Of a stretch of 64,000 nucleotides of DNA, positions 24,926-29,314 are shown one piece after another (position 1 is the first letter of the stretch; every line of letters starts with the position of its first letter). This DNA comes from Somniosus microcephalus (lineage: Eukaryota), in NCBI GenBank assembly GCA_052327205.1, contig CM126224.1, positions 64,604,001 to 64,668,000 of the forward strand, written 5' to 3'. The notes under the pieces are model-generated. The model searched no databases. It was not told where the DNA came from and saw only the letters and a program-made list of their open reading frames with translations. The translations under genes and the position numbers were made by a program.

Positions 24926-25055
24926 TTCCCCTCACATCCACTGGCAGTTTACCATGTCTCTGGAGAGTTTGCAATGCTGTGGCACGGTGCCCAAGCTGGA
25001 GCATTTGACCTCCGGACAGCTGTAATGGAGGCTCTGACCAGCTTCAGGAGGGCAG
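24926..25055 (+). CDS. ALAD: ALAD coding exon 10: [43 protein letters not shown](G)
   Basis: Long polypyrimidine tract plus ccag acceptor, gtaata donor, 130 nt; YHVSGEFAM motif. Confidence 0.98.
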
Positions 25056-25084
25056 GTAATACTTGTTAACTTTTACAGCACTTT

Positions 25085-25600
25085 GTGCAGTGTGTTAATC
25101 CCTTGCATGAAGCCAGGTACCAACACTGCGTCCGTAGATCCTGCAATATACAGCGAGCTCTGTGTAGCCCAGTGTCCCAGGAACACGGGCACATGTGGAA
25201 TGTGAGTCACTTCATACTTGGTTTTGACACTCCTGATCTTTGGCCACCCAGTGCGGGGGGCTGGGGGGGCGCTGGCAAGTCGGAGGATCTCTGTGGGTCT
25301 GCTTCTGGGCCTCGCCAAGGTGGTCATCCACAGGAGGTCCAGGTTGGACGCGGCTCGTGGGAGCGTGGTCGCTCTGGCTGGCTGTCTGTCTCTCGTCCGC
25401 AGCCTTGTCCACGCCCAGGTGAAGAAGCATGCGGTGTCTGCTGATACGCTTGAGGCCTTCCGCAACCAGTGGTCACCGCGGGGACTGGAGTGCTTGGTGG
25501 GCACAGACAGCAATATTATTATTTAAGTTTCCTTTGTTTTATGATTTTGTTTTCTATTAGTTGTTCCCCTTTAAAAGGGGGAACTTTTATTTGACACTGG
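25085..25600 (+). mobile_element. Tx1/L1-clade LINE 3' fragment
   Basis: ORF 25218-25526 (TLLIFGHPV...LLLGLAKVVIHRRSR...LEAFRNQWSPRG) resembles a Tx1-type ORF2 C-terminus and is followed by a T-rich 3' UTR. Confidence 0.7.
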
Positions 25601-26433
25601 GGCAATCCCCTATAGAATGGCCCGCCGGGGGGCAGTCGCCCGTGGGATGGCCCGCCGGGGGGCAGTCGCCCGTGGGATGGCCCGCCGGGGGGCAGTCGCC
25701 CGTGGGATGGCCCGCCGGGGGGCAGTCGCCCGTGGGATGGCCCGCCGGGGGGCAGTCGCCCGTGGGATGGCCCGCCGGGGGGCAGTCGCCCGTGGGATGG
25801 CCCGCCGGGGGGCAGTCGCCCGTGGGATGGCCCGCCGGGGGGCAGTCGCCCGTGGGATGGCCCGCCGGGGGGCAGTCGCCCGTGGGATGGCCCGCCGGGG
25901 GGCAGTCGCCCGTGGGATGGCCCGCCGGGGGGCAGTCGCCCGTGGGATGGCCCGCCGGGGGGCAGTCGCCCGTGGGATGGCCCGCCGGGGGGCAGTCGCC
26001 CGTGGGATGGCCCGCCGGGGGGCAGTCGCCCGTGGGATGGCCCGCCGGGGGGCAGTCGCCCGTGGGATGGCCCGCCGGGGGGCAGTCGCCCGTGGGATGG
26101 CCCGCCGGGGGGCAGTCGCCCGTGGGATGGCCCGCCGGGGGGCAGTCGCCCGTGGGATGGCCCGCCGGGGGGCAGTCGCCCGTGGGATGGCCCGCCGGGG
26201 GGCAGTCGCCCGTGGGATGGCCCGCCGGGGGGCAGTCGCCCGTGGGATGGCCCGCCGGGGGGCAGTCGCCCGTGGGATGGCCCGCCGGGGGGCAGTCGCC
26301 CGTGGGATGGCCCGCCGGGGGGCAGTCGCCCGTGGGTTGGCCCGCCGGGGGGCAGTCGCCCGTGGGTTGGCCCGCCGGGGGGCAGTCGCCCGTGGGATGG
26401 CCCGCCGGGGGGCAGTCGCCCGTGGGATGGCCC
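25600..26433 (+). repeat. 30-bp near-perfect GC-rich minisatellite (~27 units), cccgccggggggcagtcgcccgtgggatgg
   Basis: Exact 30-bp period; only two variant units (a>t near 26337 and 26367). Confidence 0.98.
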
Positions 26434-26984
26434 AAGATAATAGCTGTGCCTGAAGAAAGAGGAGAAAAGCTGTTGGGGTTTCTGCTGTCATGTAAGCTGC
26501 TTCAGGACAATGTTGGCGTGTGGATGGCCCTGATTATTTCCTGCCTCTCTCCTAAAGACACTGGCTGTTGCTGGGCTATGGGTCAGTGGCTCAGACAGCC
26601 CTTAACAGATTAGCCACACTTTACATGTGAACCTGGACAGCATGTGGTGACCGGCTATTCAACTGTGGGGTCGTCCCTACGGTCCTGCCCTAGCCCAACG
26701 TGCGTGCGCACTGACATACACTTTCTGACCGAGATTAGTGGACAGTGATTGGGGGGGACCACTGACCTATTCCTGTTTCTCTTCGGTCTTTTGAAGTTGA
26801 CTTTTGCCACCAGGCTACTAAGGTCTATTGCACTGAGATTCAGCAACGTTGAAAATATCTTCTGGGGAGACCAAGAGCCAGGGCAGCACTCGCCTTCCTC
26901 CCGATAACACAATCAAGGCCCTGGATCCAATCGTTGCTCAGCACTCACTCGCCTGTCAGTCCCTCCTGGGATGGTTTCAAATTT

Positions 26985-28035
26985 TCCCGGTGGAGCATTC
27001 TATGGGGGAGCATTCTATGGGGGATCGCTCCCGGTGGGGCACTCTATGGGGGATCGCTCCCGGTGGGGCACTCTGTGGGGGATCGCTCCCGGTGCGGCAT
27101 TCTGTGGGGGATCGCTCCCGATGGGGCATTCTATGGGGGATCGCTCCCGGTGGGGCACTCTATGGGGGATCGCTCCCGGTGGGGCACTCTATGGGGGATC
27201 GCTCCCGGTGGGGCACTCTATGGGGGAATCGCTCCCGGTGGGGCACTCTATGGGGGATCGCTCCCGGTGGGGCATTCTATGGGGGATCGCTCCCGGTGGG
27301 GCATTCTATGGGGGATCACTCCCGGTGGGGCATTCTATGGGGGATCGCTCCCGGTGGGGCATTCTATGGGGGATCGCTCCCGGTGGGGCATTCTATGGGG
27401 GATCGCTCCCGGTGGGGCATTCTATGGGGGATCGCTCCTGGTGGGGCATTCTATGGGGGATCGCTCCCGGTGGGGCATTCTATGGGGGATCGCTCCCGGT
27501 GGGGCATTCTATGGGGGATCGCTCCCGGTGGGGCATTCTATAGGGGATCGCTCCCGGTGGGGCATTCTATGGGGGATCGCTCCCGGTGGGGCACTCTATA
27601 GGGGATCGCTCCTAGTGGTGCATTCTATGGGGGATCGCTCCCGGTGGGGCATTCTATGGGGGATCGCTCCCGGTGGGGCATTCTATGGGGGATCGCTCCC
27701 GGTGGGGCACTCTATGGGGGATCGCTCCCGGTGGGGCATTCTATGGGGGATCGCTCCCGGTGGGGCATTCTATGGGGGATCGCTCCCGGTGGGGCATTCT
27801 ATGGGGGATCGCTCCCGGTGCGGCACTCTATGGGGGGATCGCTCCCGGTGGGGCATTCTGTGGGGGATCGCTCCCGGTGCGGCATTCTGTGGGGGATCGC
27901 TCCCGGTGCGGCATTCTGTGGGGGATCGCTCCCGGTGGGGCATTCTATGGGGGATCGCTCTCGGTGGGGCATTCTATGGGGGATCGCTCCCGGTGGGGCA
28001 TCGCTCCCAGTGGGGCATTCTATGGGAGATCGCTC
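26985..28035 (+). repeat. 29-bp minisatellite (~35 units), gggggatcgctcccggtggggca(t/c)tctat
   Basis: Directly visible tandem array. Confidence 0.97.
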
Positions 28036-28139
28036 TATAGATTTAAAAAAAAACTAAAGTGATGCCAGCACAAGGGAAGGAGCTGAATGTATTTTTTTTA
28101 AGTCTCGAGTTTATGTCTGTTATGTTAGTTAATCGTCTA

Positions 28140-28380
28140 TTAAATAGAGGCCTGGCAGGGAACCTCCGTCCCGTGGAATGCACATCTTGTACCATGTGGG
28201 AACTCCAGGACGCTTCCCGTGTCCTGGACAACCACGTGTGCAGGAGGTGTGGTCAGCGGGAGGAGCTCGAGCTCCGGGTTTCGGAGCTTGAGCAGCAGCT
28301 GGAGTCACTGCAGTGCATCCGTGAGGCTGAGAGCTTCGTGGATAGCACGTTTCAGGAAGTGGTCACCCCGCAGCTTAAGA
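28140..28380 (+). mobile_element. CR1 ORF1 N-terminal fragment (zinc finger plus coiled coil)
   Basis: VECTSCTMWE...HVCRRC..REELELRVSELEQQLESL...EVVTPQ shows the CxxC...CxxC plus leucine-zipper pattern of CR1 ORF1. Confidence 0.8.
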
Positions 28381-28594
28381 GCTCTGGTTCTGTTAACACA
28401 CCTGCTGGACATTCTCACGGTGGTGTTGGTGTAATCTATAGCAGTGACTGTCCCATCATTCCCCATCCCACTTGACCACGGGAAGATGGGTAACCAGCAG
28501 GTGGCTCCTGCTGGGGACAGTTTTCCAGTTTGGCATTTAAGAATGATGGTGTTGTACCTGTGTGATGTTGATTTACTGTGTTTGGGTTTTGTAG

Positions 28595-28656
28595 GTGCTG
28601 ATATCATCATCACGTACTATGTGCCACAGATCCTGAAATGGCTGAAGGATATTTGA
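28595..28656 (+). CDS. ALAD: ALAD final coding exon: (G)ADIIITYYVPQILKWLKDI*
   Basis: ttgtag acceptor, TGA stop at 28654-28656; GADIIITYY motif; the spliced CDS totals 993 nt. Confidence 0.97.
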
Positions 28657-29059
28657 TGCTGCTCCGTCTCGGACACAGACCACACAGGGTTCTGAAGAAT
28701 TTTAAGCCATTCCCACAGACCGCCCCCCCGCCTCCCGTTCACCCCGCTCCTCCTCTCCCGTTCACATCTGGTACCACGGCTGATATACCAAATACTCGTT
28801 GATAAAGACGAGCAACATTCTTTTAAACCTTGAACCCTTGTATTAGACCTAAAATAGATTTTCACAGAAATGTTTAGCATCCTTCAGATATTTAGTTGCA
28901 TAATGTACATGAGTGGAAGAGAGGGAGAGATTTGACGAAGTGAGCTGAGAGTGGTTGAAAGATTATGCAGCTGCAAGTGTCTGATTTTGTAAAGGATTTG
29001 TTGTGCATTGCGAACACAGCATCAGGGATCTTAAACTGAATGAATTGACAGGCTTTGTG

Positions 29060-29241
29060 AATAAATCATGTGACTGGGATTTTGATGTACTATGTAGTAA
29101 CCGCTGCTGCCATGTGCCTTCCTGGACCTGACCGTTCGATGTGTACAGACTCTCTAACACGTGTTATTAATATTACCTGTAAGTGAAACGTGAAACCCTG
29201 TGAACAGTTGCAAATGAAATGGAAACTTCTGTTTTAATAAA
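29060..29241 (+). terminator. Candidate ALAD polyadenylation signals (AATAAA at 29060-29065 and 29236-29241)
   Basis: Two AATAAA hexamers about 400 and 580 nt after the stop, followed by GT/T-rich sequence. No transcript evidence. Confidence 0.55.
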
Positions 29242-29314
29242 ACAAATACTAAGAAATTAAATGCTGTTTGCTCTGCCTCTTGCAGCTGCAATGTAAGTCA
29301 TTCCTTTAAGTTAC

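What the first reader, a model, noticed from the sequence alone, without database searches (positions are those of the whole stretch)
25597..28035. Two different-looking minisatellites in the last ALAD intron are inverted homologues that could form an ~800-bp G:U-stabilised duplex in the sense RNA
Seen: the reverse complement of the 29-bp unit (tagaatgccccaccggga-gcgatccccca) aligns to the 30-bp unit (tgggatggcccgccggggggcagtcgcccg). By hand, 20 of 30 positions are Watson-Crick, 6 are G opposite U, 3 are mismatches and 1 is a bulge. The edge copy at ~25602 (gcaatcccctatagaatg) is almost identical to the reverse complement of a 27-kb variant (cattctataggggatcgc, ~27533), supporting common ancestry. 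The arrays have similar lengths (~830 and ~1050 bp) and a ~550-bp spacer. Inference: 26 of 30 positions can pair in the pre-mRNA, whereas the six G:U positions would be A:C mismatches in the antisense strand. This predicts a long strand-specific hairpin that could affect splicing or retention of the last intron, or be an ADAR/Dicer substrate. Whether it is selected or accidental is unknown.
Basis: partly seen in the sequence, partly recalled or inferred. Interest (0 to 1): 0.8.

Follow-up and report, generated by a model that had tools for sequence, protein, structure and literature searches.

The report
Minisatellite born as inverted neighbour copy
Two repeat arrays in the last intron of the haem-synthesis gene ALAD are inverted relatives predicted to pair into a ~720-base-pair RNA duplex, but reads from related species lack one array, so the duplex is likely a young by-product of a copying error rather than a conserved regulatory element.

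Summary
The two arrays are inverted homologues (20 Watson-Crick, 6 G:U, 3 mismatches, 1 bulge per unit). The sense-strand duplex is predicted strongly and specifically: 720 inter-array pairs, beating shuffles, self-folding and a G4 option; the antisense gain is at shuffle level. The functional reading is not supported. Both units occur only here in 6.45 Gb. Contigs of two related organisms lack the 30-bp array; in one, contig lengths fit an exact empty site, while the 29-bp array is present in one and inferred in the other. The 821-bp array is most likely a lineage-specific inverted copy of its neighbour, made by microhomology-primed template switching and then expanded. A second, unexpanded example lies 427 kb away. 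All 10 variant types in the older array weaken pairing; none compensates. G:U asymmetry follows from the young unit's drift to G. That drift is unexplained: 9 of 10 changes give G (6 of 7 A to G), far faster than the flanks. RNA reads were too few to test editing or retention.

The parts
24926..25055 (+). ALAD penultimate coding exon, ending at the GT donor of the last intron
   Evidence: Pfam PF00490 E 3e-11; donor seen; 7 reads from one start in RNA run X22
25056..28594 (+). Last ALAD intron, 3539 nt; predicted MFE -2090.6 kcal/mol (-0.59 per nt)
25214..25594 (+). 3' fragment of a high-copy dispersed repeat (Tx1/L1-like LINE by recall; Pfam gave no family); present in organism C
   Evidence: depth up to ~70,000, paralog contigs stop at 25593-25594; 5 other nhmmer hits in 1.63 Mb; no Pfam hit
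25595..25611 (+). Host sequence shared with organism C that matches reverse-complemented B at 15 of 18 columns, with a 7-nt perfect 3' end against B variant copies 27534 and 27592: inferred entry microhomology
   Evidence: X5 contig matches 25535-25611 with 1 difference and stops; alignment score 18, reached by 7 of 1068 sampled windows
25612..26432 (+). Array A as an inferred insertion: 11 nt + 27 x 30 nt; the first 8 nt are identical to reverse-complemented B, the repeated unit differs at 10 of 30 positions
   Evidence: absent from contigs of organisms C and D at this site
26433..26995 (.). Spacer: single-copy host DNA, orthologous in organisms B, C and (in part) D; holds a decayed dispersed repeat around 26536-26670 (SINE-like by recall); its first 2 nt are the inferred exit microhomology
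   Evidence: 1 match in G000; orthologous contigs and multi-contig pile-up at 26625-26670
26996..28035 (+). Array B, about 34 x 29 bp, 95% matches; the older, inferred donor array
   Evidence: unit depth 70-85 versus 8.3 single-copy in organism D and joined to the spacer there; locus-specific
28044..28385 (+). Fragment of a dispersed repeat with an 85-codon open stretch (CR1-like ORF1 by recall; no significant Pfam family)
   Evidence: 16 other nhmmer hits in 1.63 Mb
28595..29241 (+). ALAD last exon: stop at 28654-28656, AATAAA at 29236-29241

Best explanation
Array A is an inverted relative of array B that is missing at this site in two related organisms, and it likely arose as a templated insertion copied from B and then expanded, so the predicted sense-RNA duplex is likely a neutral by-product. 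Steps: (1) B already lay about 560 nt away (shown for organism D, inferred for C). (2) A DNA 3' end at 25611 mis-primed on the + strand of B through a chance 15/18 match, copied 11 nt plus one or more units in inverted orientation, and returned through a 2-nt microhomology (inferred from the junctions and the empty site). (3) The copied unit gained 10 changes, 9 of them to G on the sense strand (differences shown; direction inferred; cause unknown), and one unit swept to 27 near-identical copies (homogeneity shown). (4) Each A-to-G change in one arm turns an A-U pair into G:U in the sense RNA and into an A:C mismatch in the antisense, which yields the strand-specific duplex (computed). (5) The duplex would be a nuclear ADAR substrate that leaves with the excised intron and would have little effect on splicing (inferred, untested).
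For: Empty site: in organism C one 679-nt contig matches 25535-25611 and runs 602 letters further with no depth on A units. A 593-nt contig of C covers 26433-26927 in 505 letters plus 88 letters on the left. With nothing between 25611 and 26433, the 602 letters end at 27039, the exact base where organism B's contig breaks on entering array B, and the 88 letters start at 25524, where repeat-paralog contigs break (arithmetic). Organism D's match also stops at exactly 26433, and D has B units at about 9x depth but no depth on A units. Units, shared core and spacer occur only at this locus; with 2 mismatches, 2 outside hits versus 2 control hits. An independent unexpanded case: a 35-nt inverted copy 236 nt from a 15-bp array at C23:64,202,553-64,202,587, whose 31-mer occurs once forward, 14 times reverse and nowhere else in G000. 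No compensation: 10 of 10 B variant types fall on WC columns and weaken them. All 8 ALAD-intron arrays of 200 nt or more have G > C on the sense strand. Template switching is a described one-step source of new inverted repeats (PMC5453318, passages).
Against: The tree of organisms A-D is unknown: C and D share 4 differences from the window and could be one clade, so a single deletion is possible. D's 111 letters left of 26433 match neither A nor the left flank and are unexplained. The model needs 9 substitutions in 30 nt where flanks differ by 5-6% (Poisson p about 1e-4), and minor variants in six ALAD arrays show no A-to-G excess (4 types on 30 A, versus G-to-A 15 on 91). The mammalian A-to-G strand bias is reversed in teleost introns (PMC2927911 section 6). 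Of 6 short arrays left out of the G-skew count, 3 are C-rich. The switch distance (560 nt or more) exceeds the 100-200 bp searched in PMC5453318. Neutrality is not shown by RNA data.
Confidence: 0.68

Rival explanations
1. The inverted duplication is old, both arms were ancestral, and the lineage of organisms C and D deleted arm A. The 17 nt at 25595-25611 are the stump of the old arm, and A's unit had a long time to diverge. The duplex is still unselected.
For: Explains the 15/18 flank match and the 30% unit divergence without fast evolution. C and D share 4 differences from the window and may be one clade; D shows another deletion of 436 nt in the spacer.
Against: The right break lies within 2 nt of the end of B-homology in both C and D, which an insertion predicts and a deletion must hit by chance. 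An in-register contraction would leave 11 nt that the alignments do not show. A flank match of this score occurs by chance in 7 of 1068 windows.
Confidence: 0.14
2. The duplex is selected: it bridges the intron or recruits ADAR or Dicer and tunes ALAD splicing or output.
For: Strong, specific, sense-only predicted duplex; mean probability 0.84 that an A base pairs with B in 26000-27500; -0.59 kcal/mol per nt passes the -0.5 mark that went with editing in C. elegans introns (PMC6239182 section 5; other software and temperature); similar arm lengths.
Against: Arm A is absent in two relatives; 0 of 10 B variant types compensate or fall on unpaired columns; G:U asymmetry p 0.0625; arms are 539 and 559 nt from splice sites, whereas fish AC/GT bridges lie within 200 nt (PMC4691745); A is made first and self-folds at -616.5 kcal/mol, which may trap it.
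Confidence: 0.07
3. After the insertion created a perfect duplex, ADAR edited arm A and the edits were written into germline DNA (RNA-templated repair, or deamination in an RNA:DNA hybrid), which produced the G-rich unit that then expanded.
For: 6 of 7 A positions changed to G against 3 of 22 other positions (Fisher p 0.001) and 0 of 3 T positions (p 0.033), all on the sense strand of a predicted long duplex; rate far above the flanks.
Against: Two C-to-G changes and one inserted G are not ADAR-type; four A's in the first 8 inserted bases stayed A; array B shows no A-to-G excess; two changed A's have a 5' G, a context recalled as disfavoured by ADAR; one unit only, and the test was chosen after seeing the data; polarity may be wrong for two sites that could be CpG decay in B.
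Confidence: 0.06
4. The whole unit is the remnant of a foldback or MITE-type DNA transposon whose terminal inverted repeats held tandem units that later amplified, as in Tetris.
For: The outline (tandem units in two inverted arms around a spacer) matches Tetris (PMC4079207, abstract); both ends abut other dispersed repeats that could have removed true termini.
Against: No second copy of units, core or spacer in G000; spacer and arm B exist without arm A in relatives; no target-site duplication seen.
Confidence: 0.05

Closest known systems
Short-range template-switch mutations, four-point model (PMC5453318; passages read)
   Same: [quoted passage not shown]
   Different: Here the donor is a minisatellite 560 nt or more away (they searched 100-200 bp), and the copy became a second array, so a copy that may have been as short as ~40 nt grew into an ~820-nt arm with a diverged unit.
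Intronic inverted-repeat dsRNAs and editing-enriched regions of C. elegans (PMC6239182; passages and section 5); inverted Alu pairs (recalled)
   Same: Long intramolecular duplex inside one intron, in a repeat-rich region; that paper notes that tandem repeats can form dsRNA when an inverted copy is near.
   Different: Arms are locus-specific minisatellites, not dispersed transposon copies; editing was not shown here.
Fish (AC)m-(GT)n intron-bridging repeats (PMC4691745; passages)
   Same: Complementary repeats at two places in one intron predicted to pair across it.
   Different: Those lie within 200 nt of the splice sites, recur across many introns and are needed for splice-site pairing; these lie 539 and 559 nt away and one arm is lineage-specific.
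Tetris foldback transposon with TIR-220 tandem repeats (PMC4079207; abstract)
   Same: Tandem units within inverted arms that amplify into arrays.
   Different: Tetris is a dispersed mobile element; this is single-locus and its arms differ in age.

Membership tests
Template-switch (templated inverted insertion) product | Inserted segment is the reverse complement of nearby sequence | tested here: met
   First 8 inserted nt identical to reverse-complemented B; edge copy 87% over 31 nt, 0 of 3000 shuffles
Template-switch (templated inverted insertion) product | Outgroup shows the site without the inverted copy | tested here: met
   Contig lengths and break points fit an exact empty site in organism C; D also lacks A units. 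Junction letters not seen; polarity about 80:20 by my estimate
Template-switch (templated inverted insertion) product | Microhomology at the switch points | tested here: met
   7 nt perfect within 15/18 at entry, 2 nt at exit
Template-switch (templated inverted insertion) product | Near-perfect (95% or more) identity of the copy to its template, short range | tested here: not met
   Repeated unit is 20 of 30 identical; donor 560 nt or more away versus 100-200 bp in PMC5453318. Read as later divergence
Foldback / MITE DNA transposon | Dispersed multi-copy family | tested here: not met
   (very old copies could be missed)
Foldback / MITE DNA transposon | Both arms and interior inserted as one unit | tested here: not met
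   Spacer and B present without A in relatives
Foldback / MITE DNA transposon | Target-site duplication | tested here: inconclusive
   None seen, but both ends abut other repeats
Intron-bridging repeat pair, (AC)m-(GT)n type | Arms within 200 nt of the splice sites | tested here: not met
   539 and 559 nt
Intron-bridging repeat pair, (AC)m-(GT)n type | Pairing required for accurate splicing | not testable with these tools
   Needs a minigene
ADAR-edited intronic inverted repeat | Long predicted intramolecular duplex in the sense RNA | tested here: met
   720 inter-array pairs; -0.59 kcal/mol per nt versus -0.23 to -0.42 for 4 other stretches of the gene
ADAR-edited intronic inverted repeat | Clustered A-to-G changes in RNA reads | tested here: inconclusive
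Selected, conserved RNA structure | Conservation of both arms and compensatory changes | tested here: not met
   Arm A absent in C and D; 0 of 10 variant types compensatory

The most novel reading that the evidence does not exclude
Minisatellites in this genome seed inverted daughters next to themselves, and when the pair sits in a transcript the resulting RNA duplex is edited by ADAR and the edits are written back into germline DNA, leaving an A-to-G hypermutated daughter array as a fossil of RNA editing.
Probability: 0.06. Interest if true: 0.88.

Novelty: new variant of a known kind. Interest (0 to 1): 0.42.

Why it matters
It is a polarised natural case of minisatellite birth by inverted copying from a neighbouring minisatellite, with a second locus caught before expansion. 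A short copying error plus repeat expansion can thus place a predicted ~720-bp dsRNA in the intron of an essential gene with no transposon involved. Such parent-daughter pairs carry their own ancestral state, so they make a standing question testable: why GC-rich minisatellite units diverge fast and towards G on one strand. As a regulatory RNA element the case is weak.

Tried and rejected
Rfam scan of 25050-29300 at E up to 1: 0 matches. Dispersed-family search: none; the C1 hit lies in an unrelated-looking stretch and is at control level. RNA test: no RNA holder was listed among indexed runs; two raw RNA runs of the same species label gave 0 and 7 exon reads, so there is no test of editing or retention. 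My first reading of the contig tables (about 97 unrelated letters in place of array A) was dropped once contig lengths fitted an empty site exactly. G4 competition: ViennaRNA's G4 option chose no quadruplex; G4Hunter-style means are A 0.57 and B 0.91, so A's G gain does not make it an outstanding G4 former, and 'G4-driven expansion' was not supported. Ordinary A-to-G mutation bias as the cause of the drift: not seen in minor variants. Unit-versus-unit score as proof of homology: too weak alone. Earlier findings of this scan: three look-ups returned nothing. Literature searches listed no paper whose title or abstract start describes an inverted daughter minisatellite seeded from a neighbour or its A-to-G drift; the library lacks most subscription journals, I read listings only, and no supplements were opened.

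Full report
Setting. The window lies on contig C23 (72.8 Mb) of a 6.45-Gb genome. ALAD runs on the + strand: Pfam PF00490 hits 24926-25054 and motif-anchored exons run in order from about 330 to the stop at 28654-28656. The last intron is 25056-28594. The region is dense in minisatellites: 137 arrays passing my filter in 1.63 Mb sampled. High tandem-repeat and GC content is reported for short shark chromosomes (PMC10620051, passages).

Observation. Array A has 27 units of 30 bp with one variant type in 2 copies; array B has about 34 units of 29 bp at 95%. The edge copy is 87% complementary to B over 31 nt and no shuffle of 3000 reaches its score. The unit-to-unit match alone is modest: 3 of 3000 shuffles reach it, and the direct orientation scores nearly as well. 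Among 79 neighbouring array pairs it is not a clear outlier.

Folding. The sense strand of 25590-28045 folds at -1661.6 kcal/mol with 720 A:B pairs (219 G:U pairs in the whole structure), against -1314.7 for A, spacer and B folded apart. The antisense strand folds at -1018.7 against -980.8. Eight natural units of each array gain -114 on cofolding in sense and -15 in antisense. Forty shuffled pairs gain -7 +/- 13 (best -63), and 7 other natural arrays gain +1 to -18 with A or B. The G4 option and the whole-intron fold keep the 720 pairs. These are equilibrium predictions; A is transcribed first and self-folds at -616.5.

Locus-specific. Exact 24- and 28-letter unit patterns occur 17 and 27 times, all here. 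The shared core occurs 1 forward and 19 reverse, all here. With two mismatches, 2 of 35 hits lie elsewhere, against 2 control hits. The spacer and the inner edge of B match only this locus (that search can miss old copies). A foldback or MITE family is therefore unlikely.

Relatives. Of 24 listed runs I laid 6: X21, X22, X3, X5, X7, X10. Organism B is identical over 621 nt apart from one 15-bp gap and has both arrays. Organism C differs by about 5-6% (29 substitutions over 495 nt; 28 over 543 nt). One C contig covers 26433-26927 in 505 letters with 88 more on the left (55% of that run read). Another matches 25535-25611 with one difference and continues 602 letters with no depth on A units. For minus-strand records I took positions in the record's own orientation, checked on a 60-nt unit contig. 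If 25611 joins 26433 directly, the 602 letters end at 27039 (allowing for the 15-bp gap seen in B), exactly where organism B's contig breaks inside array B, and the 88 letters begin at 25524, where repeat-paralog contigs break. This fits an empty site for A and an array B starting at the same place. Organism D's contig also stops matching at 26433, skips 436 nt of spacer and joins B units, which have about 9-fold depth; A units have none. D's 111 left-hand letters match nothing I laid. I did not see the junction letters and do not know the tree.

Mechanism of origin (inferred). The insertion is 821 nt = 11 + 27 x 30. Its left flank, shared with C, matches reverse-complemented B at 15 of 18 columns and ends in 7 perfect bases against the variant in copies 27534 and 27592. 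The first 8 inserted bases continue the B sequence exactly; the right junction has 2 nt in common with B. A flank match of this score is found in 7 of 1068 sampled windows, so a chance priming site is plausible. This is the anatomy of a template switch that creates an inverted repeat (PMC5453318), at longer range than that study searched. Short templated inverted insertions at breaks are reported in yeast (PMC11724301, search listing only).

A second case. Testing 269 flanks of the 137 arrays against distant flanks, 11 passed my cut-off and 4 beat all 40 controls; two of those four are low-complexity purine or C-rich matches. The other two are this locus and a 35-nt inverted copy 236 nt from a 15-bp array at C23:64,202,553-64,202,587. 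Its 31-mer occurs once forward, 14 times reverse and nowhere else. It looks like the same event before expansion; it has no outgroup check.

No sign of selection on pairing. In 32 B units without indels (2 with indels left out) there are 10 variant types in 25 instances. All hit Watson-Crick columns: 7 become mismatches, 3 become G:U, none repairs a G:U or mismatch. Six of seven transition differences are G:U in sense (p 0.0625). All 8 intron arrays of 200 nt or more have G > C on the sense strand, one only barely; the two arrays downstream of the gene split. Of 6 shorter arrays left out, 3 are C-rich. Neighbouring arrays share skew sign in 54 of 83 pairs (68 of 5000 permutations; split arrays of one family not removed). 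Transcription-linked instability of G-runs on the non-transcribed strand is reported in yeast (PMC4256205, abstract), which is a lead only.

What stays unexplained. Against B, unit A has 6 A-to-G, 2 C-to-G, one extra G and one G-to-A. That is 6 of 7 A positions against 3 of 22 others (p 0.001), and 9 substitutions in 30 nt where 1.8 are expected from flank divergence (p about 1e-4). B units in D are 90-95% like today's, so most change is likely on the A side. Minor variants in six ALAD arrays show no such bias, and teleost introns have the reverse A-to-G asymmetry (PMC2927911). Candidates: biased conversion or expansion of a G-richer unit, error-prone repair synthesis (recalled), ADAR edits written back (explains 6 of 10 changes), or wrong polarity (the old-duplication rival). 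These p-values come from one unit, tested after seeing it.

RNA. X21 gave 0 reads on the spacer and 0 on the exon; X22 gave 7 exon reads from one start and no clearly orthologous intron reads. Editing, retention and small RNAs are untested. By analogy with intronic inverted repeats (PMC6239182) the duplex would be edited if it forms. With arms 539 and 559 nt from the splice sites, unlike fish AC/GT bridges (PMC4691745), and both arms in one intron, an effect on splicing is not expected.

Verdict. Real feature, right structure prediction, most likely accidental and lineage-specific. New variant of a known kind; interest 0.42, carried by the polarised birth of an inverted daughter array and its unexplained G drift rather than by RNA function.

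Noticed in passing
G000:C23:64,202,553-64,203,448 (locus L155): A 35-nt inverted copy (about 2.3 units) of a locus-specific 15-bp array sits 236 nt upstream of it, at the end of a GT-rich microsatellite with 5 of 6 nt matching at the entry: a likely unexpanded template-switch seed.
   Followed up: yes
window 4701-28001: All 8 ALAD-intron arrays of 200 nt or more are G+T-rich on the sense strand (keto skew +0.16 to +0.58), while the two arrays downstream of the gene are -0.13 and +0.08.
   Followed up: partly
window 32962-64000: A 34-bp satellite of more than 900 copies begins about 3.7 kb after the ALAD poly(A) signal and fills the rest of the window.
   Followed up: no
window 26575-27010: Organism D lacks these 436 nt of the spacer, and its 111 letters left of 26433 match neither array A nor the left flank.
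   Followed up: partly
window 26992-27006: A 15-bp duplication at the inner edge of array B is absent in organism B, the only difference over 621 nt.
   Followed up: partly
G000:C23:64,876,920-64,881,296: A 33-bp C-rich array and a 26-bp G-rich array 2.4 kb apart align in inverted orientation above all 40 controls, but both are low-complexity, so homology is uncertain.
   Followed up: partly
G000:C23:63,600,001-65,400,000 (sampled 1.63 Mb): Tandem arrays passing my filter cover about 692 kb of 1,634 kb (42%), including satellites of 74 kb and 137 kb.
   Followed up: no
G000:C23:63,994,867, 64,905,369, 64,919,689, 64,936,056: Four 54-bp arrays share a motif resembling the decayed dispersed repeat in the spacer (by eye), suggesting one SINE-like family repeatedly seeds minisatellites.
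   Followed up: no
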